Origin: Candidatus Shapirobacteria bacterium | Lineage (GTDB): Bacteria; Patescibacteriota; Microgenomatia; UBA12405 | DNA length: 64,000 nt | Assembly (NCBI GenBank): GCA_030698565.1 | Contig: JAUYJS010000008.1 | Location: 86,513 to 150,512, forward strand | Reading direction: 5' to 3' | Notes under the pieces: generated by a model | Seen by the model: only the letters and a program-made list of their open reading frames with translations | Told to the model about the DNA's origin: nothing | The model's database searches: none | Position numbers and translations under genes: made by a program | Shown here: positions 18,273-64,000 of the stretch, one piece after another | How the letters are laid out: each line of letters begins with the position of its first letter | Numbering within the stretch: the stretch's first letter is position 1

Positions 18273-18359
18273 TGCGGAGGAGGCGAGATTCGAACTCGCG
18301 AGTCCTTGTGAGACGCAGACTTTCCAGGTCTGTGCAATGAACCACTATGCGACTCCTCC
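18273..18359 (-). tRNA. tRNA-Ser(GGA)
   Basis: Cloverleaf with acceptor GGAGGAG/CUCCUCC, anticodon loop CUGGAAA, a long variable arm, and T-loop GUUCGAAUC. CCA is not encoded. Confidence 0.8.
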
Positions 18360-18360
18360 A

Positions 18361-18490
18361 ATTTGTTAATGTATAGAACCACGATGTTGAGCGAAGCGAA
18401 ATCCCCGTAGGGACGACTCCTCCAGTTTGTTAATGAACCACGATGTTGAGCGAAGCGAAATCCCCGTAGGGACGACTCCTCCAGTAGGGT
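18361..18490. repeat. Tandem direct repeat, two ~58-bp copies, each ending in a copy of the tRNA-Ser 5' acceptor sequence
   Basis: 'AACCACGATGTTGAGCGAAGCGAAATCCCCGTAGGGACGACTCCTCCAG' occurs twice (about 18377-18426 and 18435-18484), immediately 5' of the tRNA. Confidence 0.7.
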
Positions 18491-30050: not shown

Positions 30051-31715
<1,665 letters not shown>

Positions 31716-31744
31716 AAATATTATTATAAATAATAGGGGCGTAT

Positions 31745-31774
31745 TACAATACGCCCCTATTTTGATTATGTACC
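31745..31774 (+). terminator. Rho-independent terminator of groESL
   Basis: Perfect hairpin AGGGGCGTATTACAATACGCCCCT followed by ATTTTG. Confidence 0.75.
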
Positions 31775-31789
31775 GAATCTGAAGCTATC

Positions 31790-32400
31790 TCCGCCGGACT
31801 CCAAAAATCCAAAGACTGTCCAATAAGATAACCATATATCCCATAACTTGAATTAAATTTATTTCCGTGTTATATTCCGCATACATTGTCATACAAGACA
31901 TTGGTCCTTTAAAACAAACCTCAGCAGGTGATTATTTTCAGAACAACCAAAAGTTGTTTTGTTAGACTCAGGGATCCAAATCAGAATTCGGGAGGTCAAA
32001 TTTTAGTGTCCACAAATCCGAGTTCCAAGAAAAATCCGAAGGTCAAAGTTACTATTGGTCCTTCTGGTCGGGTAGTGAGGGAACTCGTCTCTCACCCCGT
32101 GTTCGACGTACCTGGTCCCAAGCAGTTTAAGGTCGCTACCCATAGTAACCTTAAACTAGTCAGCGCCGAATCAGGAGAATACTCTCCTCCAGAGAGGCCG
32201 ACTCACTATCCCATGGTTCACAGTTGCACCTGCTGAATCCCTTCCGTAAAGATAAACTGAACATTCTATCTCGTTGCGAGGTAGGGCTTGTTCAATTTTT
32301 CTTGTGAAACAGGAGAGGGAACGGACGACACAATCCAACACTGTAAGCTTTCAGCTTGCAATCCATCTACGTATGTCTCCCCGTTCCCTCCCCGTTCCTT
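31790..32400. ncRNA. Candidate structured ncRNA of unassigned class. The region is GC-enriched and free of convincing ORFs.
   Basis: About 610 bp between the convergent genes groEL and idi. GC content is well above the flanks. Many stable hairpins, e.g. GTTTAAGGT..ACCTTAAAC, GGAGAATACTCTCC, GAGGGAACGG..CCGTTCCCTC and AAGCTTTCAGCTT. The only ORF, 31928-32236, looks non-coding. Confidence 0.3.
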
Positions 32401-32402
32401 TC

Positions 32403-32942
32403 TTAAATTTCCAACAATTTTTCGTTTTCTCCTCGTCTTTTATTTAATTCCTTCAAAGTTACCTTGAACCAAAAAGTATAACTGCCTGGATTTTTATTTA
32501 CATCTTCATTTAAATTTTCCCAACTAATCCATTTCCAATCTTCTGCCTCATCGCGGTTAATTATCGGGTCTTCATCATATTTGCCTATAAATACATGCAA
32601 GTATTCATTTTCACTTAATCCATGGTCTAGTTTAATTTGATATTTATATTCAAAAACTTCTTTTAATTTACAATCAAACCCCATTTCTTCTCCAAGTCTT
32701 CTATGGGCTGCTGCCAAAGTATTTTCTTCTGGTCGGGGATGGCTGCAACAAGTATTCGTCCACAATCCACCACTATGATATTTGCTCAATGCTCTTTGTT
32801 GCAACATTGTTTCGCCTTTTTCGTTGAAAATTAAAATCGAAAATGCTCGATGCCTTTTGCCATCACCCTCATGCGCCTTCATTTTTTCTTCAATTCCAAT
32901 TTGTTGATCATTTTCATCGACCAAAATTACAAAATCAGCCAT
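32403..32942 (-). CDS. idi: Isopentenyl-diphosphate delta-isomerase, type 1 (NUDIX fold)
   Basis: 'WTNTCCSHPRPEENTLAAAHRRLGEEMGF' matches the IDI-1 active-site region. Confidence 0.85.
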   Translation of the reverse strand: MADFVILVDENDQQIGIEEKMKAHEGDGKRHRAFSILIFNEKGETMLQQRALSKYHSGGLWTNTCCSHPRPEENTLAAAHRRLGEEMGFDCKLKEVFEYKYQIKLDHGLSENEYLHVFIGKYDEDPIINRDEAEDWKWISWENLNEDVNKNPGSYTFWFKVTLKELNKRRGENEKLLEI

Positions 32943-33036
32943 AAATTTATTTAAAATTAATTTCTAATTATATCTTTAGTAGTTATTTTAGTTCAAATTC
33001 ATTCGCTTCTGGTAAAATAGGAAGATTTATATAAGT

Positions 33037-33109
33037 GACCCGGTAGCCAAGCGGTTAGGCAGTGGTCTGCAAAACCATATAGATGGGTTCAACTCCCGTC
33101 CGGGTCTCA
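33037..33109 (+). tRNA. tRNA-Cys(GCA)
   Basis: Acceptor GACCCGG/CCGGGUC, anticodon loop CUGCAAA, T-loop UUCAACU. Confidence 0.85.
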
Positions 33110-33114
33110 AAATC

Positions 33115-33582
33115 TTAATCATTCCTATTTTTAATTTCCATTTCCAAAATTTCCTCATTTTCTCCAAACACAAATATTGCTTCGATTTTTTCTCCACTCA
33201 AAACTTTTGGTAACCAAAATCTATCATCAACCCACATTTTATCGTAAGGAATTTTGTCTATGTCGTACCACATCGGCGCCATTTCTTCCGATTCTTGCGG
33301 TTCATTTTCCCATTCATTAATTTTATAAACCACCACTTCCTGGTTCCAATCTTGATTATTTTTAAAATAAAATTTTATTTTTGCCACCAGCTCTTGATTT
33401 TTAAATACCACCCCTATTTCTTCCATAATTTCTCTTTTTAAAGTTTCTTCGATTAATTCTCCATCATTTGGTTTTCCGCCAACCCCATTCCATTTTCCCG
33501 CCCCAAAACCTCTCTTTTTCATGGCCAATAAAATTTGATTGTCTTTAATTAAAAATCCTAATGTTGTTTGCCTTAAATTCAT
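33115..33582 (-). CDS. NUDIX hydrolase (MutT-like)
   Basis: Nudix box 'GGKPNDGELIEETLKREIMEEIGV'. Confidence 0.75.
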   Translation of the reverse strand: MNLRQTTLGFLIKDNQILLAMKKRGFGAGKWNGVGGKPNDGELIEETLKREIMEEIGVVFKNQELVAKIKFYFKNNQDWNQEVVVYKINEWENEPQESEEMAPMWYDIDKIPYDKMWVDDRFWLPKVLSGEKIEAIFVFGENEEILEMEIKNRND

Positions 33583-34841: not shown

Positions 34842-35183
34842 TTATACCTTTTTAAATACTTTAAAAATCCAAAATGCGATATAAGAAAATGCTAGTAATT
34901 CTATCAGTACAATAAAAGCAAAAACAGCTCCGACCGAGCTTACTAATTCTCCATAGCGATAATGATCCCAAAAATACCGAGCCGTGGCATAAATAATAGC
35001 GGGGGAGACCGCGGTTAATGCTAATAAAAATATTTGAGATTTATCCCTATCTTTAATCAAAGTTTTTAAAGTCAAAAATGGTTCGTAAACCAAATGATAT
35101 AAATTGCACAGGAGTTTCCATATTTGTCTGACCGCAATCAAAAATCCCAGTTTAATAATCTTTTTAATTCTTTTTTTGATCAT
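34842..35183 (-). CDS. Small membrane protein, putative anti-sigma factor partner
   Basis: Lies immediately downstream of the ECF sigma factor and overlaps it. Three TM helices. Confidence 0.4.
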   Translation of the reverse strand: MIKKRIKKIIKLGFLIAVRQIWKLLCNLYHLVYEPFLTLKTLIKDRDKSQIFLLALTAVSPAIIYATARYFWDHYRYGELVSSVGAVFAFIVLIELLAFSYIAFWIFKVFKKV

Positions 35184-35664
35184 AATTCCATTTTTGTCGA
35201 AATTTTAATTTAGCCCGCAATAATCTTGATTCGACCGCTTTAATACTCATTTCCAGTTTTTCGGCTATCTCGTTAATTTTGAATCCGTCTATATACTTTA
35301 GTCGCAGAATATGACTATAACCTTTGTTTATTTCAGCGAATGTTTTTTTTATTTCATCTTTTAATTCATTTTTTAGTACATCTCTTTCCGGACTCAAGGC
35401 TTCATCAGCAATTTCTTCAAAAAATGGACTAACAGAAAACAAAATTGTTTTTAATTTCTTTTTCCGGTAATAATCAATAATTTTGTGCTTAGCGATACTA
35501 CATAGCCAGCTAAATTCCGAGCATTTATGATTAAAGGCAGAATAGGTACTTATCCCCGCCATTAATACATCATTGCTCAATTCTTCCACCACATCCTCAT
35601 CATCAATTTTTTGGGCAATAAATCCTCGAACGCCCAAATAGTACTTTTGGTACAAATCTTCCAT
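35164..35664 (-). CDS. ECF-subfamily RNA polymerase sigma-70 factor
   Basis: Region 2 'FSWLCSIAKHKIIDYYRKK' and region 4 'ILRLKYIDGFKINEIAEKLEMSIKAVESRLLRAKLKFR'. Confidence 0.8.
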   Translation of the reverse strand: MEDLYQKYYLGVRGFIAQKIDDEDVVEELSNDVLMAGISTYSAFNHKCSEFSWLCSIAKHKIIDYYRKKKLKTILFSVSPFFEEIADEALSPERDVLKNELKDEIKKTFAEINKGYSHILRLKYIDGFKINEIAEKLEMSIKAVESRLLRAKLKFRQKWNYDQKKN

Positions 35665-35725
35665 TATGGTCTAATGTAGCACACTGGATCAAAATTTGTA
35701 ATTTTGTCAACCGTGTCACCCTGTA

Positions 35726-35847
35726 GAGACGCATTGAATGCGTCTCAAAATATAATTTATAAAAATATGGGTAGGGGCGTATTGCAATACGCCCCTACAA
35801 AAACAATAAATTCATTCACGTACGGACAGGTCGCGACCTGTCCGTAC
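35726..35847. repeat. Three consecutive perfect palindromic hairpins in a divergent intergenic region
   Basis: GAGACGCATTGAATGCGTCTC (35726-35746), GTAGGGGCGTATTGCAATACGCCCCTAC (35771-35798) and GTACGGACAGGTCGCGACCTGTCCGTAC (35820-35847). Each is followed by AAAA(A)C. The second is nearly identical to the groEL terminator stem. Confidence 0.7.
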
Positions 35848-35941
35848 AAAAACGAATCAATAAAAACATAAAATCATTACATCCCAATACTGGGAAAATT
35901 ATGGAATCATACCTCTTTATTTTTGATAGAATAGGACAACA

Positions 35942-37720
35942 ATGAGCAAGGAACTTTTGGAAATAATTTCGGGTTTCAAAAGAACATTCCACCTGATGGA
36001 TCGTTCGGAAAAGATAACTCTGGTTATATCCTCAACTCTAATGCTCACCACCGGTATTCTCACTAACTTACCTGCCATTATTTTGGGACGATTGGTAGAC
36101 AAACTCACTGAATCGGCCAATATTCAATTTAGTTGGGCGTTACCTTTTATTTTATTAATAGTAGTAATTATCATTGTCCGTGAGGTATTGACTGTCATTA
36201 GAAAATATTTAGTAGAAAACATTGCCACCCAAACAGAAAAGAAACAAACTGTTGCCGTAATTAGTCATCTTCTTAAGGCAGACATTGCTGTCATCAACCA
36301 GCAGCAAATTGGTTCCCTCCACGGAAAAATTTTCCGTTCTATTCAAGGGTTAGTTAAAATAATTAAACTTGGTTTTCTTGATTTTTTTCCAGTTTTCTTC
36401 AGTGGTATGGCTGCTATTGCTATTGCTCTTTTGCAAAAACCATTATTAGCATCAGTAATGATTCTGGTCATACCTACTGGATTATTTATTATTTTCAAAC
36501 AATTATCATCTCAAAAAGGACTTCGGGTTGCCTTCCTTAGGAAACAGGAAACTATTGATGGTGCTGTTGTAGAAATGCTTGGTGGTTTAGAAACCGTTCG
36601 GGTGAATGATACCACTGATTTGGAAGTTAAGAAGGTAGAACTGGTTGCAGAAGAATTGCGGGCAAAAGAAATAAAACACCATATTTCTATGGCTTTGTTT
36701 GATTCGGCAAAATACCTAAACGAAGGTTTTTTCTATATCTTGGTCATCAGTTTATCAATCCTTTTTTCCGCTCAAGGCTTAATCAGTAGGGGAGATATTT
36801 TGGTTTATTCAATTTTGTTTTTAAGTATTACTGGCCCCTTAAGAGAAATCCATCGCATTCTTGACGAAGCTCACGAGAGTTCGATCAGGGTTAACGATTT
36901 ATATGAGTTATTAGACGAGCCGATTGATGAGTCGTTTAAAACTGTTACTCAAAAATTAAAACCGACCCCCGCTGTTCTCCAAGTCAAGAATTTGTCATTT
37001 ACTTATCCTGATAAAACTAAAAAGGTTATCGATGATATTAGTTTAACCATCAAACAAGGAGAAAAAATTGGCATTGCCGGTGCTTCTGGTTGTGGCAAAT
37101 CAACCATGATAAAAATCATCCTTCGCTTAGTTCACGACTATTCAGGGGACATGTTTCTTTTTGGTCAGGATTTAAAAAGCATTTCCCGATCTCAAATTGC
37201 TCAAAAAGTTGCCTATATTCCTCAGAAAAGTTATGTCTTCTCCGGAACAATTAAGGAGAATATTGTTTACGGTTGCCAAAATAAAGTTTCCGAAGAAGAA
37301 ATCGTTTCTGCTGCTAAAAAAGCCAATATTTATAATGAAATTATTGATTCTTTGGGTGGTCTCAGCGGCCGGGTGGGGGAAAACGGTAACAATTTAAGTG
37401 GCGGTCAAAAACAGCGATTAACTATTGCCCGATTAATTTTAAAATCTCCGGATTTATTTATTTTTGATGAAGCTACTTCTGCTTTAGACAATACCAACGA
37501 AGTTCTTATTCAGAAAAATATTGAGAAACTATTTAAAGATAAAACGATGATTACTATTGCCCATCGCCTAACTTCTTTAAAAAATAGTGATCGAATATTC
37601 GTCCTTAATAAAGGCACAATAGCCCAGGAGGGGACTTTTGATATGCTTGCAAACCAAAAAGGACTATTTCAAGATTTCCTAAATCAGAAAGAAGAAACAA
37701 TTCTACAATCCCACAATTAA
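35942..37720 (+). CDS. ABC transporter, fused permease/ATPase exporter
   Basis: 'GASGCGKST', 'LSGGQKQRLTIARL', 'FIFDEATSALD'. Confidence 0.9.
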   Translation: MSKELLEIISGFKRTFHLMDRSEKITLVISSTLMLTTGILTNLPAIILGRLVDKLTESANIQFSWALPFILLIVVIIIVREVLTVIRKYLVENIATQTEKKQTVAVISHLLKADIAVINQQQIGSLHGKIFRSIQGLVKIIKLGFLDFFPVFFSGMAAIAIALLQKPLLASVMILVIPTGLFIIFKQLSSQKGLRVAFLRKQETIDGAVVEMLGGLETVRVNDTTDLEVKKVELVAEELRAKEIKHHISMALFDSAKYLNEGFFYILVISLSILFSAQGLISRGDILVYSILFLSITGPLREIHRILDEAHESSIRVNDLYELLDEPIDESFKTVTQKLKPTPAVLQVKNLSFTYPDKTKKVIDDISLTIKQGEKIGIAGASGCGKSTMIKIILRLVHDYSGDMFLFGQDLKSISRSQIAQKVAYIPQKSYVFSGTIKENIVYGCQNKVSEEEIVSAAKKANIYNEIIDSLGGLSGRVGENGNNLSGGQKQRLTIARLILKSPDLFIFDEATSALDNTNEVLIQKNIEKLFKDKTMITIAHRLTSLKNSDRIFVLNKGTIAQEGTFDMLANQKGLFQDFLNQKEETILQSHN

Positions 37721-37749
37721 AATCAAATTCGGCATATAATTTCAAAATA

Positions 37750-38406
37750 ATGGCAGAAATATTATTTGATAATCGTATTGCTTGGGAAATATCTAAAATC
37801 TCAAAAATAAAAAAATATTTTAAATTTTTCTTTTTTGGGCTAATTCCCCTTTATTTTTTAGCTGTTCCGTTCTTAATATTTATCGAACGTGAACACGGTA
37901 TTTTGCGGGTTAGAGTACCAGTAAATTTTAATTTTCATCAATCATTAGATATCTATTTAATCGGTCTTTTTACATTAATAAGTATTTTCTTGATTGTTAT
38001 TTTTATAGTTTATCTTTTTAGTCCAAACGAATCTTATATTATTGATCAACAAGGTATGGTTAAAACCATTAACAGCTTATCTAAAAGATATTCTTGGTCA
38101 GATTTAATTGAATTTTATAGTTATTCTAATTTAGTCGATCGCAAACAGTGTTCGATTAAAAATCTCCCTAGTGGAACTTTTGTTAAAGTAAATTCACACG
38201 CAATTAAAAACCTGCCTATTTTTGATTATCCAATTATTTGTATATCGATTAAAAAGCAGAATACCTCTTCAAATAACGGTAATAAAATTTTAATGATTAG
38301 AACACTGCCGGAAAACTTTAAGCAAGTAATAATATTTTTAAGTCGAAAATTACCGATCTTTTTTCCCGAGTATATTACAAAAGGTCTTTTCAGTCATTTT
38401 GAATGA
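37750..38406 (+). CDS. Hypothetical membrane protein
   Basis: Two TM helices. Follows the ABC exporter. Confidence 0.45.
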   Translation: MAEILFDNRIAWEISKISKIKKYFKFFFFGLIPLYFLAVPFLIFIEREHGILRVRVPVNFNFHQSLDIYLIGLFTLISIFLIVIFIVYLFSPNESYIIDQQGMVKTINSLSKRYSWSDLIEFYSYSNLVDRKQCSIKNLPSGTFVKVNSHAIKNLPIFDYPIICISIKKQNTSSNNGNKILMIRTLPENFKQVIIFLSRKLPIFFPEYITKGLFSHFE

Positions 38407-38457
38407 TATCTGATATTCAAAATTGTATTTTATAACCTGGATTTTATATACTGAATT

Positions 38458-39282
38458 ATGTTTTATTCTGTTCGCCATCCGTTACAAAAACTTTCCACCG
38501 AATTAAGACTAGATTTATTGGATTTGATTTATCAAAACGGTGGCCATATTGGCGGTTCATTATCATCACTAGATTTAATGGTTGCAGTTTATTTTGGCAA
38601 AATATTTGATCTAAAAAAAGATAAATTTATCCTATCCGCTGGTCATATTTGTCCAGCTCTTTATACGGTTTTAGCAAAAGCCGGTTATTTTTCCCAAGAA
38701 AAACTAAAGACTTACAGTCAGTTTAAATCCTTTTTGCAAGGCCACGTGTCAACTGAAACACCCGGAGTCAATTATTCTTCCGGTTCGCTTGGCCAAGGAT
38801 TATCTTTTTCCGCCGGCTTAGCCCTGGGCAATAAAAAAAATATGGCAATTTGTTTGACTTCCGACGGGGAGCACCAGGAAGGCCAGGTCTGGGAAGCGGC
38901 CATGTTTGCCGCCAAATATCATTTGGGTAATTTAATTAATATCGTTGACGTTAACCGATTTCAAATTGATGGCAGTACCGATGAAATCATGCCACTCAAA
39001 AATCTAGCCGCCAAATATATTCAATTTGGTTGGACTGTGACTACTGTCAATGGTCACAACTTTAATCAAATTTTAAAAGCCCTTAACAAAGCCAAAAATT
39101 CGACTTATCCAAACTGCATTATCGCTCAAACTACGTTTGGTAAAGGCATTTCTTTTATGGAAAATAATTATCATTTTCATGATGTTAAAAATCTTTCCGC
39201 CGACCAATATTCGGAGGCAAAAAAGGAATTGATGAATATCAATTCCCGTAGAGACGTATTGCATACGTCTCAATCCAAATGA
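38458..39282 (+). CDS. Transketolase, N-terminal (thiamine-diphosphate-binding) subunit
   Basis: 'GGHIGGSLSSLDLMVAVYFG' and 'SDGEHQEGQVWEA'. Followed by a separate C-terminal subunit gene. Confidence 0.85.
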   Translation: MFYSVRHPLQKLSTELRLDLLDLIYQNGGHIGGSLSSLDLMVAVYFGKIFDLKKDKFILSAGHICPALYTVLAKAGYFSQEKLKTYSQFKSFLQGHVSTETPGVNYSSGSLGQGLSFSAGLALGNKKNMAICLTSDGEHQEGQVWEAAMFAAKYHLGNLINIVDVNRFQIDGSTDEIMPLKNLAAKYIQFGWTVTTVNGHNFNQILKALNKAKNSTYPNCIIAQTTFGKGISFMENNYHFHDVKNLSADQYSEAKKELMNINSRRDVLHTSQSK

Positions 39283-47672: not shown

Positions 47673-47819
47673 TAGCCTATTTTAGCAAAATAAATCCAAT
47701 CCCGCGCTACGTCTCTACTCACACATGTTTCGTCATTGCAAGAAAACCCGGCAGTAGTTGGGTTGACATGTCAATCTCTATTTATTTACAATCATATATA
47801 AAGTATAAAAATTAAATCA

Positions 47820-48108: not shown

Positions 48109-51100
48109 ATGGCAGAACCAGGCGGCCCCGAAGGCCCTCAAATTCCAAGATCAGAAACAAATAAACCCTCGGAAACAAGGAGAATTTTTGACGCCCTCAA
48201 AGCCGGAATAACTGGACAAATCCCACCAAAAGAAGTATTTAAGCAAATTCTTAATGTTGCAACCGAAACAAAATTAACCGCACAGAGCTCAGTGTCAGTC
48301 ATAGAAACTGTAGTGTCTGAACCGATAGTTGAACAGGAAAAAGTATTAGATCTCCACGAAGCCAGTGTAAAAAAAATTGATCAGTATTTAGAAGCGATTA
48401 AGGCTGATAAAAGTAGAGAATCTTTTTTGCAAAAAAATCTTGATGAAGTCAATTATGGTAGAGAAAGACTTCGTAAATTAGCTAGTAAGAACCCTATAGA
48501 TCGATTATATCTGGCAAAGGATAGACGAGATGTTATAGCTAAATTAGGTCAGAATGGAATTAATAATCCGGAAGTCTTGGTGGAAATGTTAGAAAGTATT
48601 GGTTCTGATTTACTTTTGGCTTCAAGAGACGTATCTAAAAGGGTTAAAGATGAAAATGGAATGAGGACAAGGATAGGTGAACCAGTGTATGTTGAATATA
48701 CCGACTATCGGGAGCTTGGCAGAAAAATAAATTTGGAAACAGTAATAGAACTCAACAAGGGACTAGGAGACGCCCAGAAGATCGGCGAGGCTATCAGAGT
48801 TGGAGAAATTTTTGGTCTTGCTGGGTATCAACTTGCGGAAAACACTGATCTACTAATAACATTAGGAAAAATTCCCATAACAAGACTAAACGAAATTGTC
48901 GATAAATTAAAAGAATTTTCCTGCATATATCAATTTAATAATTGTAAGACAGTAGAGGCCAAAAAGAAATTCGGAGAGTTGATGACAAGATTTGCTAAGG
49001 ACCCGATCTATTTTCAAGGTATTGTTGATAATCTAAAAGATGCCGAAAGATTGTTTCGGGTTTCAAGATCAATTAATGATCCAATTTTATTGGAAGATCT
49101 AGATAGGGGCAATACTGATTCACAAGTATTGACTGTGATTGGCAACATGTTAACTGAAGATACCAGCGATATAAATCTTGATTTTAGAAGCACAGTTCAT
49201 ACTTTAAAAATTAACCCGGAATCAACTAGAGAAATAATTAAGCTTATCGATTCTGGTTTTACGATTGATAAAGAAACTGCCAGTCAAATGAGTGGATATC
49301 GCTTCAAAGAAAAATTAGCTACCAAGATCAGGACAGCAACAGATATATTAATTTCGGATGAATCGGGAAGTAGACTGGTAAAATACTTAACAGGATTTTT
49401 GGGCATCTCCGATTTTGATGGTTTATTTCATGCAACTGAAATCACTGACAAAATTAAAACTAGACTGGCTGATGGCTCGGCTGACGATTCCCTGGATAAT
49501 ACCGATGTTATATTGTCAGAGATTGTTACCCATCTTAATAATGATAAGGAATTCGCCGATCGGGTCTTTAAGGGTCGGGAAGATTTATTGTTATCTCTAG
49601 CCAAAAAAATGGATCCGGCCAGGCTAGGTGAAGTGATTAAAAGTACTGCTTCTACATTTTCCCCTGAATCAGCGATATTTTGGCAGTTCTTTTCCAAACA
49701 TGGAAATTTTAAGGATTTCTTATTAAATCATTATCAAGATTTCCATAGGTTTTTCACTAAAATCGACAATAAGTTTGTTCCCACTCTTGCATGTGTTAAG
49801 ACAATGATAGCGTCCAATGACAGTAATTGCGTAGATTATTTGCGTGATGAATTTAGTAGTAATCAGAGAATGGAAACACTACCGGTCGAGGAACAAGTAA
49901 CATTGGCAACAACCATAATTCGATCATTAGAATATTACCAAGAGGTCTCAAATCGAGCTTGGCCTGAAAGAGCTGCGCTTCTGAAAAAGTATATGTCAGA
50001 CGGAAAACTAAATCAGCAATTTTTCGAGGATATTGCCTGCAGTAATACTACCTTAGCGATAAATCTCTTAACAGACCACAATCTAAGTCTAATGTCGCTT
50101 GAAGACAGATATTTCTGGTCTATTTTTAAAAAAATTAACCCTAATATTAGAAGAGATTTTTTGGATTTAAAAGAGAACTTTGGTCAGTATGTAGATAACG
50201 ACGGTCATTTAAAAGCAGAGTTGTTTGAAACTTTAGCAAAAAAAGGTAGATTAGAAGCAGTTAATCGGGCATTAGATCTGGAAACAATCAGTAATTTTCC
50301 TGAAGAAAAAAGAAAATATTGGCAACTATTAATTAATTTAAAGTCTGTGCAGGCCAAGGAAGCATTGCTCGGAATTATAGAACCATTATCTCAATATGCA
50401 GAAACAGGTGATACTAAGTTGCTTATTGAACAAGTAAATAGTTTAGGAATTGATGAGGCTGGGTCTCTTGTAGGTAAATCTTTACAACTGGACTTTTTAG
50501 ATATTGATCAAAGATATTTGACGCCGATTGGATTAACCGGTTGGAATACGTATAAAGAATTTTTGGCACAAAAACAAAATGAAGTTGGTCCATTAACTGC
50601 TGTCGATTTTGAAAAAATAATTAGCATTTCTAGAGAAAAAGTGATTAAGAGATTAAAAGCTATAAAAAGTATGGAATTAACAGTACCTGAAGGCTTGAGA
50701 GTGAGTCTGGGAATAGAAATAGAAGTAGTAAAAAATGGGCTAGCGAGAACTGGTAAGATTACAGAAGACGAGATTGTTGAATATAATCAAGCATGTCAGC
50801 AAGCAGGTAAACGGCAAAGCATCTTTGTAGAAGATTTTATTAAAGAAATTGGGCAAAAAATTCAAGATGCTAAGTATTTATATCGGAATCAAACAACATT
50901 AGTTGATGAGATGGATGTTGGCAGAGGTAATGATGCCACCCACGAATTTGCCAATCGCCCGGTACAAAATTATTCATTATTATTATGGGAACTCTCAGAG
51001 CTCCAACATCTTGGATATATTAATTTCGATCGCAAATTTCTTCAACATATCGAAAAGGGGTTACATTTAACTATATCGGCTGAAAGCGGAGGGATAGTTT

Positions 51101-51843
51101 TGGATGAAAACTCAACACTCCTTCAAAACGCAATCCTGATTTCAGGGTGGGGTACTAGTGCTTTAGATGGTATTGGTGCAATGGAAGTTGTTGATGTGGC
51201 AGCAGACAATTCAGAAAAATTTTATAAACAAGCAAAAGGATTTATTCTAGAAAGAAGTGGATTAAAAGAAGAGGTTTTTCGCGATGGAACTGAGAAAAAA
51301 GGAGTGGAAAATCGTACAGTAGGGTTAGTCAGCTTTAATCATCTAGCCAGGACACTTAGGTCTTTTCAGGTATTATCTGTATCTCTAAAAGCTTTTCAAA
51401 CCTATAAAAAAACATTTGGTAGTACTAGGGGAAGAGAAATAGTTTTATTTGTTAGAAAAAAACTAGATGAGAGTAGATCTCTATCAGAAATAATGACTGA
51501 TTCAACCAGAATAGCACCTGAATTTAAAGACGAAAAAATAAAGAAACTAGCCATATTATGGGCATATTTTCGGGAAAACACAACAATAAACTTCGAGGAA
51601 AAACAAACATCGGCAGGTAAATACCGTTTAAAATCACCACTGTTAGAATACAGTCCTCGTGATATGACCCGTTTAGGTGGGGAATTATTTAAAGTTTTTG
51701 GTGGTAGAAAGGATGATGGTGGTTTAGAGGAAGACGCTCTAAAGTCTTACCATAAAAGGCCTCGTAAAGGCAGTTTACCCGATATTGAAAGACAGCTCAT
51801 TATTAGTTGCCGTCGAGAAGTAATCAAAATTCTAAAAAATTAG
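48109..51843 (+). CDS. Large multidomain protein of 1244 aa with a C-terminal YbdK/GCS2-like carboxylate-amine ligase (glutamine-synthetase-fold) domain
   Basis: C-terminal motifs 'SLGIEIEVV', then ~78 aa, 'ATHEF', then ~42 aa, 'GLHLTIS'. These mirror YbdK's 'LGIELEMQVV', 'GTHPF' and 'HVHVG' in order and spacing. The N-terminal ~850 aa are unassigned and have no TM segment or signal peptide. Confidence 0.55.
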   Translation: MAEPGGPEGPQIPRSETNKPSETRRIFDALKAGITGQIPPKEVFKQILNVATETKLTAQSSVSVIETVVSEPIVEQEKVLDLHEASVKKIDQYLEAIKADKSRESFLQKNLDEVNYGRERLRKLASKNPIDRLYLAKDRRDVIAKLGQNGINNPEVLVEMLESIGSDLLLASRDVSKRVKDENGMRTRIGEPVYVEYTDYRELGRKINLETVIELNKGLGDAQKIGEAIRVGEIFGLAGYQLAENTDLLITLGKIPITRLNEIVDKLKEFSCIYQFNNCKTVEAKKKFGELMTRFAKDPIYFQGIVDNLKDAERLFRVSRSINDPILLEDLDRGNTDSQVLTVIGNMLTEDTSDINLDFRSTVHTLKINPESTREIIKLIDSGFTIDKETASQMSGYRFKEKLATKIRTATDILISDESGSRLVKYLTGFLGISDFDGLFHATEITDKIKTRLADGSADDSLDNTDVILSEIVTHLNNDKEFADRVFKGREDLLLSLAKKMDPARLGEVIKSTASTFSPESAIFWQFFSKHGNFKDFLLNHYQDFHRFFTKIDNKFVPTLACVKTMIASNDSNCVDYLRDEFSSNQRMETLPVEEQVTLATTIIRSLEYYQEVSNRAWPERAALLKKYMSDGKLNQQFFEDIACSNTTLAINLLTDHNLSLMSLEDRYFWSIFKKINPNIRRDFLDLKENFGQYVDNDGHLKAELFETLAKKGRLEAVNRALDLETISNFPEEKRKYWQLLINLKSVQAKEALLGIIEPLSQYAETGDTKLLIEQVNSLGIDEAGSLVGKSLQLDFLDIDQRYLTPIGLTGWNTYKEFLAQKQNEVGPLTAVDFEKIISISREKVIKRLKAIKSMELTVPEGLRVSLGIEIEVVKNGLARTGKITEDEIVEYNQACQQAGKRQSIFVEDFIKEIGQKIQDAKYLYRNQTTLVDEMDVGRGNDATHEFANRPVQNYSLLLWELSELQHLGYINFDRKFLQHIEKGLHLTISAESGGIVLDENSTLLQNAILISGWGTSALDGIGAMEVVDVAADNSEKFYKQAKGFILERSGLKEEVFRDGTEKKGVENRTVGLVSFNHLARTLRSFQVLSVSLKAFQTYKKTFGSTRGREIVLFVRKKLDESRSLSEIMTDSTRIAPEFKDEKIKKLAILWAYFRENTTINFEEKQTSAGKYRLKSPLLEYSPRDMTRLGGELFKVFGGRKDDGGLEEDALKSYHKRPRKGSLPDIERQLIISCRREVIKILKN

Positions 51844-52625
51844 TCTTTATGAAAAAATGCCCTCTTCAAGTCCACCTTTTCTGATCCAATTTTCGGCCAC
51901 ATGAATAAAAACTGAGGGGTAAAAACCAAAAAATTTAAAATATATAAAATTTCTGCCCCCCCCTTTTTCAAAGGGGGGTTGGGGGGGATTTGAGTAGCCA
52001 AAAGACAGAGGATTTCATTATATCCAGTGGCAGTATATTTTTTCGCCCACCCGTTTTCTTCTATAAATTTTTTATAAATATTATCTTTATTAATTAATGG
52101 TTTCATTAAAACCAAATCAATGGCATTTTTTAAATTATGCTTGTCTTTGGGTAATTTTAAAGCATTTTCATCTAGCCAAAAATTAAAACAAAACTGATCT
52201 CTTTTTTCCTGTTGTCCATATCGGCGATGGGGCAGGTGGTGACTAAAAATATACCATCTTAGTAATAGTCGAACGATCCATAAAGTATCTTTTTTGGTAA
52301 TTATTAGTAAATCAATATCATCGTTTTTTGCAGGATACCCGGCTGCGACCGAACCAGTTAAACCAATAAATAAAATATCTTTAAATTTTTGGCCAATAAT
52401 ATCGGCTAAATTTTTAGCCTTTTTAGTTTTAGTAATCAGCCAATAATTATTATTACTTTTTACTAAAGAATTTTTAAGTCTATTTTTACTTAAACCTTCC
52501 TTAATTTCTTTGTCCAGATAAACATCTTTACTGATCAATCTTTGCTTTAATTCATCAAAAGTGAGTTGTACCCCAAACTCTTTGGCATAACTCATAGTTT
52601 CCTCAATTGACCTTGCTAAATTCAT
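51840..52625 (-). CDS. Nucleotidyltransferase-fold protein
   Basis: 'GLTGSVAAGYPAKNDDIDLLIIT' GS-x11-DhD motif. The C-terminal codons run through a C8/G7 homopolymer hairpin. Confidence 0.5.
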   Translation of the reverse strand: MNLARSIEETMSYAKEFGVQLTFDELKQRLISKDVYLDKEIKEGLSKNRLKNSLVKSNNNYWLITKTKKAKNLADIIGQKFKDILFIGLTGSVAAGYPAKNDDIDLLIITKKDTLWIVRLLLRWYIFSHHLPHRRYGQQEKRDQFCFNFWLDENALKLPKDKHNLKNAIDLVLMKPLINKDNIYKKFIEENGWAKKYTATGYNEILCLLATQIPPNPPLKKGGAEILYILNFLVFTPQFLFMWPKIGSEKVDLKRAFFHKD

Positions 52626-63131: not shown

Positions 63132-64000
63132 TTATTCCCAAGCTGGTAGTGTATCTTTTGTCAAAAATTCCAATATTACTCCGCCACCACTACAAATAAA
63201 ATCAATTCTGTCTTTTAGTCCAAGATTAACAATCGAAGCAGTAGTGTCTCCTCCGGCAATGACTTTATATGCGTTTGATTCAGCCACTGCTTTAGCAATT
63301 TCTTCAGTTCCATTTCTATCATCTTCTGATTCATACATTCCCATTGCCCCCGCCCAAATTATCGTTCTGCTTTGCAGAATTATTTCTTTGAATTTTTCAA
63401 TATCATTTTGACTCAAATCAAAACCACTTTCATCCAACTCCGCTACTCTGATCTTGTCATCCTGAACTCGTTTCAGGATCTCTTGATCAATTAATTTAGG
63501 TAATTTTCCCCCAATCAATATCTGATCCGCAATTTTTTCTAACTCCGGTAAATATTTTAATTTGTCCTCTTTGGCCCCGCCCAAAATTATAGTTAGGGGA
63601 CGATCTGGATTAACAATTAATTTACTGATGGCATTTGCTTCGGCAATAAAATTTATTCCATAAAATGCAGGTAACTTGTGGTGCAGCATAATTGACGCCT
63701 GTTTTCTGTGGGCGACCGCAAAAGCATCGTTCACAAACACATCAACTAACGAGATTAAATTTTCCAAAAATTTAGGATCATTATTTTGTTCCCCAGGCCA
63801 GAATCTCAAGTTTTCTAAAAACACCATATTATTTTCAGCCAAAGCCAAATCGATTTTTTTCGCATCATTTAAATCATCAATAAAAACACTATCGTAAATA
63901 TTTTGGCCCTTTTCTAATAAAGCCATTAATTCCACATAAGCCTGTTTTAAACTCAAATTATTATCGATTCCCTGGGGCCTACCCCTATGTCCAATTATTA
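63132..64000 (-). CDS. pgk: Phosphoglycerate kinase. The N-terminus lies beyond the window end.
   Basis: C-terminal 'CSGGGVILEFL'. The reading frame continues to position 64000 and includes 'IGHRGRPQG'. Confidence 0.9.
   Translation of the reverse strand, partial: IIGHRGRPQGIDNNLSLKQAYVELMALLEKGQNIYDSVFIDDLNDAKKIDLALAENNMVFLENLRFWPGEQNNDPKFLENLISLVDVFVNDAFAVAHRKQASIMLHHKLPAFYGINFIAEANAISKLIVNPDRPLTIILGGAKEDKLKYLPELEKIADQILIGGKLPKLIDQEILKRVQDDKIRVAELDESGFDLSQNDIEKFKEIILQSRTIIWAGAMGMYESEDDRNGTEEIAKAVAESNAYKVIAGGDTTASIVNLGLKDRIDFICSGGGVILEFLTKDTLPAWE

What the first reader, a model, noticed from the sequence alone, without database searches (positions are those of the whole stretch)
35726..35847. 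Three stacked perfect palindromes in a divergent promoter region, members of a hairpin family sharing a GTAGRGRCG core
- Three palindromes lie between the ECF sigma gene (minus) and the ABC exporter gene (plus): GAGACGCATTGAATGCGTCTC, GTAGGGGCGTATTGCAATACGCCCCTAC (28 bp, perfect) and GTACGGACAGGTCGCGACCTGTCCGTAC (28 bp, perfect).
- The second is almost identical to the groEL terminator stem at 31745 (AGGGGCGTATTACAATACGCCCCT).
- The first closely resembles GAGACGTATTGCATACGTCTC at 39251, which lies in the last codons of the transketolase N-terminal-subunit gene. It shares the upstream CCGTAGAGACG with the CCCCGTAGGGACG inside the tandem repeat at 18361.
- Terminators are not expected between divergently transcribed genes, so these may be REP-like repeats, protein-binding sites or a small RNA.
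Basis: seen in the sequence. Interest (0 to 1): 0.5.

Follow-up and report, generated by a model that had tools for sequence, protein, structure and literature searches.

The report
REP hairpin cluster in CPR genome
The three palindromes are copies of small mobile DNA hairpins (REP elements, normally moved by a RAYT transposase) that occur almost letter-for-letter in many bacterial phyla; here they sit at the edge of a recently inserted transporter gene in a tiny candidate-phyla-radiation genome, which is an unusual host but a known kind of element.

Summary
Three perfect hairpins lie at 35723-35746, 35771-35798 and 35820-35847, evenly spaced (48 and 49 nt), each followed by an A-run. They are far beyond chance.

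They are GTAG-tagged REP elements. P2 and P3 are the "double-foot" type (GTAG...CTAC) described for RAYT subclass 2.4 / group 4.
- The P1/P2 pattern hit more than 120 genome stretches across many phyla. The P3 pattern hit more than 120 metagenome contigs.
- In other genomes the same hairpins lie beside or in-frame inside RAYT (Y1 HuH transposase) genes: 4 of 120 loci for P1/P2 and 13 of 120 for P3.

The source is a Candidatus Shapirobacteria MAG. The window holds five complete copies and one half-copy, and a sixth copy lies about 0.6 kb beyond its end.
- More distant relatives have none in 30 kb and place the sigma gene directly next to transketolase.
- The cluster therefore marks the left edge of a derived 2.73-kb insertion carrying the ABC exporter.

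No RAYT was found in about 73 kb of this genome, so current mobility is unproven. Terminator, operator and sRNA readings are poorly supported. This is a new member of a known kind in an unreported host group, and of moderate interest.

The parts
35723..35746 (+). P1: single-foot REP, GTAG head plus 10-bp stem and 1-nt loop (GTAGAGACGCATTGAATGCGTCTC), followed by AAAA
   Evidence: The exact variant GTAGAGACGCATTGAATGCGTCTC recurs in Chlorobiota, Bacteroidia and other genomes.
35771..35798 (.). P2: 28-nt double-foot REP GTAGGGGCGTATTGCAATACGCCCCTAC, with three G-C pairs at the stem bottom, followed by AAAAA
   Evidence: The exact 25-mer core is the commonest variant in the genome scan (84 strand hits). 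It lies inside RAYT genes in L003 and L024. Logan contig L001 breaks exactly here.
35820..35847 (.). P3: 28-nt double-foot REP with GTAC feet, GTACGGACAGGTCGCGACCTGTCCGTAC, followed by AAAAA
   Evidence: More than 120 metagenome contigs carry it. It co-occurs with the GTAG-foot form GTAGGGACAGGTCGCGACCTGTCCCTAC. RAYT homologs are present in 13 of 120 loci.
31734..31759 (+). P2-like REP with ATAG/CTAT feet, 17 nt after the groEL stop. The palindrome extends to 31732-31761 and is followed by TTTTGATT, so it doubles as a plausible groEL terminator.
   Evidence: The close relative L247 carries a different double-foot REP (GTAGAGACGTAGCGCGCTACGTCTCTAC) at the same place. Outgroup L256 has a plain hairpin there.
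39248..39273 (+). P1-like single-foot REP inside the last codons of the transketolase N-subunit gene. It encodes the tail ...SRRDVLHTSQSK*.
   Evidence: Outgroup tktN genes are 261-263 aa, against 274 aa here.
47695..47718 (-). Half-REP remnant, CGCGCTACGTCTCTAC on the + strand. It is one arm of the L247 groEL-type REP.
35687..38419 (+). Lineage-specific 2.73-kb segment: the REP cluster, the ABC exporter (35942-37720) and an ORF (37750-38406). It is replaced by 39 bp in L247 and absent in the outgroups.
35164..35664 (-). ECF sigma factor gene flanking the cluster on the left
35942..37720 (+). ABC exporter gene (fused permease and ATPase) flanking the cluster on the right. It is part of the inserted segment.

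Best explanation
The three palindromes are a small BIME-like cluster of REP elements. REPs are short, non-autonomous hairpin DNAs. They belong to the GTAG-tagged REP superfamily and match the kind associated with RAYT / TnpA_REP transposases of subclass 2.4 (Bertels group 4). P2 and P3 are of the "double-foot" type.

Inferred mechanism, taken from work on other RAYT/REP pairs:
- On single-stranded DNA, for example the lagging-strand template, each element folds into its hairpin.
- A Y1 HuH transposase recognises the hairpin together with the GT[AG]G foot, then cuts and rejoins the strand next to it.
- Copies are thereby deposited at new sites, often next to existing copies, which produces clusters.

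In this Shapirobacteria lineage the elements arrived recently. They spread to at least six places in about 74 kb. Three different family members accumulated at the sigma/transketolase spacer. That spacer is also the left junction of a 2.73-kb insertion carrying an ABC exporter.

At this position they are most likely selfish or neutral passengers, and possibly a recombination hot spot, rather than regulatory parts of the two promoters.

Shown here: family identity, cross-phylum distribution, RAYT association in other genomes, and the derived state in this lineage. Inferred: the transposase-driven mechanism in this genome, and the lack of a regulatory role.
For: 1. Anatomy. Each is a GT[AG]G or GTAC foot directly at the base of a 10-14 bp G+C-rich stem. 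P2 has three G-C pairs at the stem bottom and the reverse-complement foot CTAC. [quoted passage not shown]

2. Same sequences elsewhere.
Hosts include Bacteroidota, Cyanobacteria, Planctomycetota, Chloroflexota, Ignavibacteria, Omnitrophota, Atribacterota, Nitrospirota, Desulfobacterota, Gammaproteobacteria and seven Patescibacteria genomes.
- Flanks are unrelated and host G+C ranges from 26 to 68%.
- P3 hit more than 120 metagenome contigs.

3. RAYT association.
- RAYT genes lie next to or around the hairpins in L003, L023, L024 and L044.
- These proteins match NCBIfam NF047646, REP-associated tyrosine transposase, at 78.8 bits, just under the 80-bit cut-off. Two of the three scanned match Pfam Y1_Tnp above its cut-off.
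[quoted passage not shown] This is the unique trait reported for subclass 2.4.
- For P3, 13 of 120 loci have a RAYT homolog. The hairpin is inside the gene in six and adjacent in five.

4. Dispersed copies with compensatory stem changes in this genome: 31734, 39248, a half-copy at 47695, and a P3-family copy about 0.6 kb beyond the window end. Short-read contigs break at P2 and at the second P3 copy.

5. Turnover.
- L247, a close relative at 91-97% nucleotide identity, lacks the cluster and keeps only foot-like remnants. It has a different double-foot REP after groEL.
- Outgroups L255 and L256 have no such hairpins in 30 kb. Their sigma gene sits 23-38 bp from tktN.

6. No Rfam family matches the region.
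Against: - No RAYT gene was found in the window, in 8.5 kb upstream, in 0.6 kb downstream, in L247, or in seven CPR loci carrying these hairpins. The remaining roughly 280 kb of the contig and the other contigs could not be searched.
- Copy number seen here is low, and REPs are classically defined as abundant. Group 4 RAYT-associated 16-mers are, however, reported at only about 14 per replicon (PMC5581495).
- P3 has a GTAC foot rather than GT[AG]G.
- A divergent spacer is an atypical site. In other genomes only 4 of 54 (P3) and 5 of 65 (P1/P2) classifiable intergenic copies are in divergent spacers.
- No experiment shows cleavage or mobility for this REP family.
Confidence: 0.82

Rival explanations
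1. The hairpins are intrinsic, possibly bidirectional, transcription terminators or insulators that stop read-through into or out of the newly inserted ABC cassette.
For: - The groEL copy is followed by a T-run and sits 17 nt after the stop codon.
- The scan flags P2 on the minus strand as terminator-like.
- In other genomes these hairpins lie mostly in tandem or convergent spacers.
- P3-type copies are commonly flanked by A-rich sequence on the left and T-rich sequence on the right.
Against: - No gene is transcribed towards the cluster from either side.
- On the + strand each hairpin is followed by A-runs, not T-runs. On the minus strand P1 and P3 lack a T-run.
- Terminators do not explain identical 28-mers across phyla or their position inside RAYT genes.
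- The two readings are not exclusive, because a REP can act secondarily as a terminator.
Confidence: 0.08
2. The REPs are immobile relics. They were imported together with the ABC exporter cassette by horizontal transfer, or left by a lost RAYT. Nothing mobilises them in this genome.
For: - No RAYT was found in about 73 kb of this genome.
- The cluster lies exactly at the left border of the 2.73-kb insertion.
- The ABC exporter's closest homologs, at about 82% identity, sit in unrelated contexts in other Patescibacteria.
Against: - Copies of the same families sit at unrelated loci: after groEL, at the tktN 3' end, and at about 64.6 kb.
- L247 has REP remnants at the same spacer without the cassette, and a different REP after groEL. 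This implies independent insertions or turnover within the lineage.
- The upstream regions of the ABC homologs carry no such hairpins.
Confidence: 0.22
3. The palindromes are operator sites for dimeric transcription factors controlling the divergent sigma and ABC promoters.
For: They are perfect dyad symmetry elements located between two divergent genes.
Against: - The three palindromes have three unrelated sequences, so three regulators would be needed.
- The same sequences occur in coding regions and downstream of genes in this and many other genomes.
- The spacer does not exist in relatives that have the same sigma gene.
Confidence: 0.04
4. The interval encodes a structured small RNA made of three hairpins.
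For: The predicted structure is very stable, z = -8.7.
Against: - No Rfam match was better than E = 0.4.
- The hairpins are perfect palindromes that fold equally on both strands.
- The unit is not conserved in relatives.
- No convincing promoter or terminator frames it.
Confidence: 0.03

Closest known systems
Double-foot and canonical long REPs of TnpA_REP (RAYT) subclass 2.4 (Quentin et al. 2018, PMC6006769), equal to RAYT group 4 (Bertels et al. 2017, PMC5581495)
   Same: - A 5' GT[AG]G foot with the reverse-complement foot at the 3' end, and three G-C pairs at the stem bottom.
- Scattered occurrence in Cyanobacteria, Bacteroidetes, Chlorobi and many other phyla.
- Low copy number.
- The same hairpins are inserted in-frame inside RAYT genes in other genomes.
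   Different: - The host is a CPR/Patescibacteria genome. No paper in the searched library links REP or RAYT to that group.
- No RAYT has been seen so far in this genome.
- P3 uses a GTAC foot.
GTAG-tagged REP superfamily (Di Nocera et al. 2013, PMC3733652)
   Same: - Short stem-loops tagged by a terminal GTAG.
- Sub-families differ by complementary stem changes.
- They occur as singles, dimers and clusters, sometimes inside gene ends.
- They lie mostly downstream of genes.
   Different: That survey lists Proteobacteria, Cyanobacteria, Chloroflexi and PVC for GTAG repeats, not CPR. I could not compare against the 24 published consensus sequences because the figures are not held.
E. coli REP/BIME and its TnpA_REP (Ton-Hoang 2012; Messing 2012; Corneloup 2021, PMC8266576)
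   Same: GTAG foot plus hairpin, regularly spaced clusters, and a proposed single-strand cut-and-rejoin by a Y1 HuH enzyme.
   Different: E. coli REPs are imperfect, bulged and single-foot. They number in the hundreds and alternate in orientation within BIMEs. Here the stems are perfect, two of the three elements are strand-symmetric, and the three cluster members belong to different sequence families.
MITEs (for example Nezha, Chunjie, Correia)
   Same: Small, non-coding, dispersed, hairpin-forming repeats.
   Different: MITEs are 100-400 bp, with terminal inverted repeats matching an IS and direct target-site duplications. These elements are 24-28 nt with no TIR/IS relationship and no direct duplications.

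Membership tests
REP (GTAG-tagged repetitive extragenic palindrome) | Short (20-40 nt) palindrome able to form a stable stem-loop | tested here: met
   Elements of 24-28 nt with perfect stems of 10-14 bp. The DNA fold is -37.4 kcal/mol, z = -8.7.
REP (GTAG-tagged repetitive extragenic palindrome) | Conserved GT[AG]G tetranucleotide at the foot of the hairpin | tested here: met
   P1 and P2 start with GTAG. P3 has GTAC, but it co-occurs in other contigs with the GTAG form of the same stem, GTAGGGACAGGTCGCGACCTGTCCCTAC. The groEL copy has ATAG.
REP (GTAG-tagged repetitive extragenic palindrome) | Many dispersed copies in one genome, mainly extragenic | tested here: inconclusive
   About 74 kb holds six complete copies and one half-copy. 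Contig breaks at P2 and at a P3 copy hint at more copies.
REP (GTAG-tagged repetitive extragenic palindrome) | A cognate RAYT / TnpA_REP gene in the same genome, flanked by the REPs (a REPtron) | tested here: inconclusive
   None was found in the window, its flanks or L247. The whole MAG was not searchable. REPtron arrangements with the same hairpins were shown in other genomes: L003, L023, L024, L044, and 13 P3-type loci.
Subclass 2.4 double-foot REP | 5' GT[AG]G and 3' C[TC]AC feet on one hairpin, with three G-C pairs at the stem bottom | tested here: met
   P2 is GTAG-GGG...CCC-CTAC. P3 has symmetric feet (GTAC). P1 is the single-foot form (definition).
Subclass 2.4 double-foot REP | [quoted passage not shown] | tested here: met
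   Met in other genomes. L003 and L024 RAYTs contain ...GVLQYAPT..., encoded by the P2 sequence. P3 lies inside RAYT ORFs in L128, L155, L164, L178, L196 and L205.
BIME (REP cluster) | Regularly spaced REPs of one family in alternating orientation | tested here: not met
   Spacing is regular (starts at 35723, 35771 and 35820). However, the three members belong to different sequence families, and two are strand-symmetric, so orientation is undefined. It works like a BIME-type cluster but is not a canonical BIME.
Intrinsic terminator | G+C-rich hairpin followed by a T-run, downstream of a gene on the same strand | tested here: not met
   No gene reads into the cluster. A-runs follow the hairpins on the + strand. 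Only P2 on the minus strand is flagged. The feature is met for the separate groEL copy.
MITE | Length of 100-400 bp, terminal inverted repeats related to an IS, and direct target-site duplication | tested here: not met
   The elements are 24-28 nt, and no direct duplications flank them.
Known structured RNA (Rfam) | Match to a covariance model at or near its gathering score | tested here: not met
   Only tRNAs reach gathering scores in the window. The best hits in 35500-36100 have E of 0.4 or worse.

The most novel reading that the evidence does not exclude
An ultra-small CPR (Shapirobacteria) genome was recently invaded by three pan-bacterial REP families without carrying its own RAYT. The hairpins would then have entered through foreign DNA, or been mobilised in trans, for example by a host-derived or transient enzyme. 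On this reading the resulting REP cluster served as the landing pad that captured a 2.73-kb ABC-exporter cassette between two formerly adjacent genes.
Probability: 0.15. Interest if true: 0.7.

Novelty: new member of a known kind. Interest (0 to 1): 0.4.

Why it matters
- It explains an odd-looking stack of palindromes as ordinary mobile REP hairpins. This removes a candidate regulatory element or sRNA.
- It extends REP elements of the RAYT group-4 type to Patescibacteria. No report of this was found in the searched literature.
- Identical 28-nt hairpins persist across phyla next to RAYTs that are only 37-49% identical to each other. This points to a strongly conserved hairpin-enzyme recognition code.
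- Within a very reduced genome, the elements mark sites of recent gene gain and of altered protein C-termini. That makes them useful markers of genome flux in CPR bacteria.

Tried and rejected
- Literature search for the hairpin sequences and for the peptides they would encode found nothing. Short strings hit only unrelated primers, and long strings had no hits.
- Rfam gave only tRNAs at gathering scores and only chance-level hits in the permissive search of the region.
- The search for RAYT in this genome was negative. tblastn with five RAYTs and an HMM built from 80 RAYT homologs found nothing in the window, L253, L254, L247 or seven CPR loci. A marginal L110 hit is not a RAYT.
- The ABC-exporter homolog route to an empty site failed. 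The nearest homologs, at about 82% identity, are not syntenic. The GroEL cluster member P0003 gave the syntenic relative instead.
- Phage vectors look unlikely. The P2 28-mer occurs in only 5 IMG/VR contigs and P3 in none.
- The promoter scan of the spacer gave nothing above shuffle expectation.
- I rejected the 18.4-kb tandem repeat as a family member. It has only a foot-like CGTCCCTAC and no hairpin. It is a partial duplication of the tRNA-Ser 5' end.

Full report
**Observation**

The window is A+T-rich, about 34% G+C. The 277-bp spacer between the ECF sigma gene (35164-35664, minus strand) and an ABC exporter gene (35942-37720, plus strand) holds three perfect hairpins.
- P1: GTAG + GAGACGCATT-G-AATGCGTCTC, 35723-35746.
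- P2: GTAGGGGCGTATTGCAATACGCCCCTAC, 35771-35798.
- P3: GTACGGACAGGTCGCGACCTGTCCGTAC, 35820-35847.

Their starts are 48 and 49 nt apart, and each is followed by AAAA(A).

The whole window has only four perfect G+C-containing stems of at least 10 bp. Three are these and the fourth follows groEL. Dinucleotide shuffles give a mean of 0.23. GTAGRGRCG occurs 7 times against 0.32 expected. As single-stranded DNA the interval folds into exactly these three hairpins, z = -8.7.

- The groEL hairpin at 31734-31759 matches P2 at 25 of 28 positions. Its two foot changes are complementary.
- The hairpin at 39248-39273 matches P1 at 23 of 26 positions, with a compensatory C-G to T-A pair.

**The same hairpins occur across bacteria**

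I scanned one genome per species with a degenerate P1/P2 pattern.

The dominant matched sequences are the exact P2 core (84 strand hits) and GTAGAGACGCATTGCAATGCGTCTC (21). The exact P1 variant also occurs.

Hosts include Bacteroidota, Cyanobacteria, Planctomycetota (including anammox bacteria), Chloroflexota, Ignavibacteria, Chlorobiota, Omnitrophota, Atribacterota, Nitrospirota, Zixibacteria, Desulfobacterota, Gammaproteobacteria and seven Patescibacteria genomes. Host G+C ranges from 26 to 68%, and the flanks are unrelated.

My rough estimate is about 26 chance matches for the degenerate pattern, but far fewer than one for the full 28-nt double-foot palindromes, which make up a large share of the hits.

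It gave two centres related by a complementary swap, TCGCGA (76 copies) and ACGCGT (34). In the same contigs P3 co-occurs with GTAGGGACAGGTCGCGACCTGTCCCTAC. P3 is therefore the GTAC-foot form of a GTAG-foot element.

**Link to RAYT transposases**

A motif search and tblastn found Y1 HuH transposase genes right at the hairpins in four P1/P2 loci from four lineages.
- L003, Salinibacteraceae: one hairpin lies 26 nt upstream of the ORF and one lies inside the gene.
- L023, Moraxella: a hairpin lies 27 nt upstream.
- L024, Zixibacteria: a hairpin lies inside the gene.
- L044, Emticicia: two hairpins lie upstream.

The two proteins scanned against NCBIfam match NF047646, REP-associated tyrosine transposase, at 78.8 and 64 bits; the cut-off is 80. 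Two of three scanned match Pfam Y1_Tnp above its cut-off. A profile search returned at least 8000 homologs, many named "REP element-mobilizing transposase RayT".

For P3, 13 of 120 mostly short contigs carry a RAYT homolog. The hairpin is inside the gene in six and adjacent in five.

The RAYTs next to identical hairpins are only 37-49% identical to each other. This argues for a conserved recognition code rather than only recent transfer.

These features match published descriptions.
- GTAG-tagged REP superfamilies are described in PMC3733652.
[quoted passage not shown] Its REPs are "canonical long", with three G-C pairs at the stem bottom, or "double foot" (GT[AG]G...C[TC]AC). Uniquely, its REPs are inserted in-frame within the transposase gene (PMC6006769).
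- The corresponding group 4 RAYTs occur in 17 bacterial classes and have only about 14 associated 16-mers per replicon (PMC5581495).

**Host and evolutionary history**

Exact protein look-ups identify the source as a Candidatus Shapirobacteria MAG, on a contig of 353.7 kb.

A syntenic Logan contig, L247, is 91-97% identical at the nucleotide level. It shows that window 35687-38419 is replaced there by 39 bp. That window segment contains the REP cluster, the ABC exporter and an ORF. The 39 bp retain a foot-like GCCTCTAC followed by AAAA.

Two further relatives, with sigma proteins 76% and 75% identical, have the sigma gene 38 and 23 bp from the transketolase N-subunit gene. Their tktN genes are 261-263 aa. 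They have no GTAG/GTAC-foot hairpin in 9.8 and 20.5 kb.

The REPs and the 2.73-kb segment are therefore derived in the window lineage, and the cluster sits at its left junction.

REP turnover is visible at other sites.
- After groEL, the window has a P2-like element and L247 has GTAGAGACGTAGCGCGCTACGTCTCTAC. One arm of the latter survives in the window at 47695-47718. The outgroup has a plain hairpin there.
- At the tktN 3' end, the window's P1-like REP encodes ...SRRDVLHTSQSK*. L247 has ...IRAPTKHEQ*, from a CGCCCCTAC remnant.
- A P3-family copy lies about 0.6 kb beyond the window end.
- Short-read contigs break at P2 and at that second P3 copy.

**What was not found**

No RAYT is present in the window, in 8.5 kb upstream, in 0.6 kb downstream, in L247, or in seven CPR loci with these hairpins. 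The rest of the MAG could not be searched.

No Rfam family matches the region. Promoter-like sites are at shuffle level. The hairpins are rare in viral contigs. In the searched library, no paper connects REP or RAYT with Patescibacteria.

**Interpretation**

The cluster is a stack of three REP elements from related but distinct families.

The most likely mechanism is the one established for other RAYT/REP pairs (PMC8266576). The hairpin and its foot are recognised on single-stranded DNA, followed by cleavage and strand transfer. This naturally places new copies beside old ones.

A divergent spacer is unusual for these elements. Elsewhere only 4 of 54 and 5 of 65 classifiable intergenic copies lie in divergent spacers. 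This fits a recent, not yet purged insertion at a rearrangement junction rather than a regulatory role.

The terminator, operator and sRNA readings are each contradicted by strand context, by sequence diversity, by absence in relatives, or by the cross-phylum and RAYT evidence.

**Verdict**

This is a new member of a known kind in an unreported host group.

Open points:
- Whether this genome encodes a RAYT.
- Whether the cluster helped capture the ABC cassette.
- Why P3-type copies elsewhere sit inside longer perfect palindromes.

Noticed in passing
L126-L245 (metagenome contigs with P3-type hairpins): Most P3-type copies sit at the exact centre of a longer perfect palindrome. Its arms are 10-23 nt (mode 19-21), differ from locus to locus, and are A-rich on the left and T-rich on the right. 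P2-type copies rarely show this (40 of 56 have none), and the window copy has none. Possible causes are insertion into hairpin loops, template-switch extension, or inverted target duplication. The question is unresolved.
   Followed up: partly
window 18350-18485, next to tRNA-Ser(gga) at 18274-18359 (minus strand): A 59-nt tandem repeat of 2.2 copies. It re-copies the first bases of the tRNA (GGAGGAGTCG...GTGGTTCATT) with an inserted piece carrying the foot-like CGTCCCTAC. It looks like a partial tRNA 5'-end duplication and has no REP hairpin.
   Followed up: partly
window 39248-39282 and L247 9870-9905: The transketolase N-subunit has a REP-encoded C-terminal tail: SRRDVLHTSQSK in the window and IRAPTKHEQ in L247. 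The outgroup proteins are 11-13 residues shorter.
   Followed up: yes
L003 2721-3434; L024 5792-6391: [quoted passage not shown] The two proteins are only 46% identical.
   Followed up: yes
window 31714-33127 versus L247 2802-6450: There are further indels between the two close relatives. Downstream of groEL, L247 has 2.27 kb with three small ORFs where the window has 0.67 kb. L247 also has a Ham1p-like gene that is missing from the window next to tRNA-Cys (33037-33108).
   Followed up: no
L001 end; L254 start (about 0.6 kb beyond window position 64000): Independent short-read assemblies of the same strain break exactly at P2 and at a second P3-family copy (AGGGACAGGTCGCGACCTGTCCGTAC). This is typical of repeats that occur elsewhere in the sample.
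   Followed up: partly
window 51957-51990: A homopolymer-rich hairpin, CCCCCCCCTTTTTCAAAGGGGGGTTGGGGGGG, lies at the junction of the convergent genes 48109-51843 (+) and 51840-52625 (-). It is unrelated to the REP family.
   Followed up: no
L076 6231-6479; L052 4066-4616; L037 1244-1463: Other genomes (Parabeggiatoa, Ignavibacteriaceae, Geomonas) carry tandem arrays of 3-6 P1/P2-type hairpins with repeated spacers of about 55-265 nt. These are larger BIME-like clusters than the one in the window.
   Followed up: no
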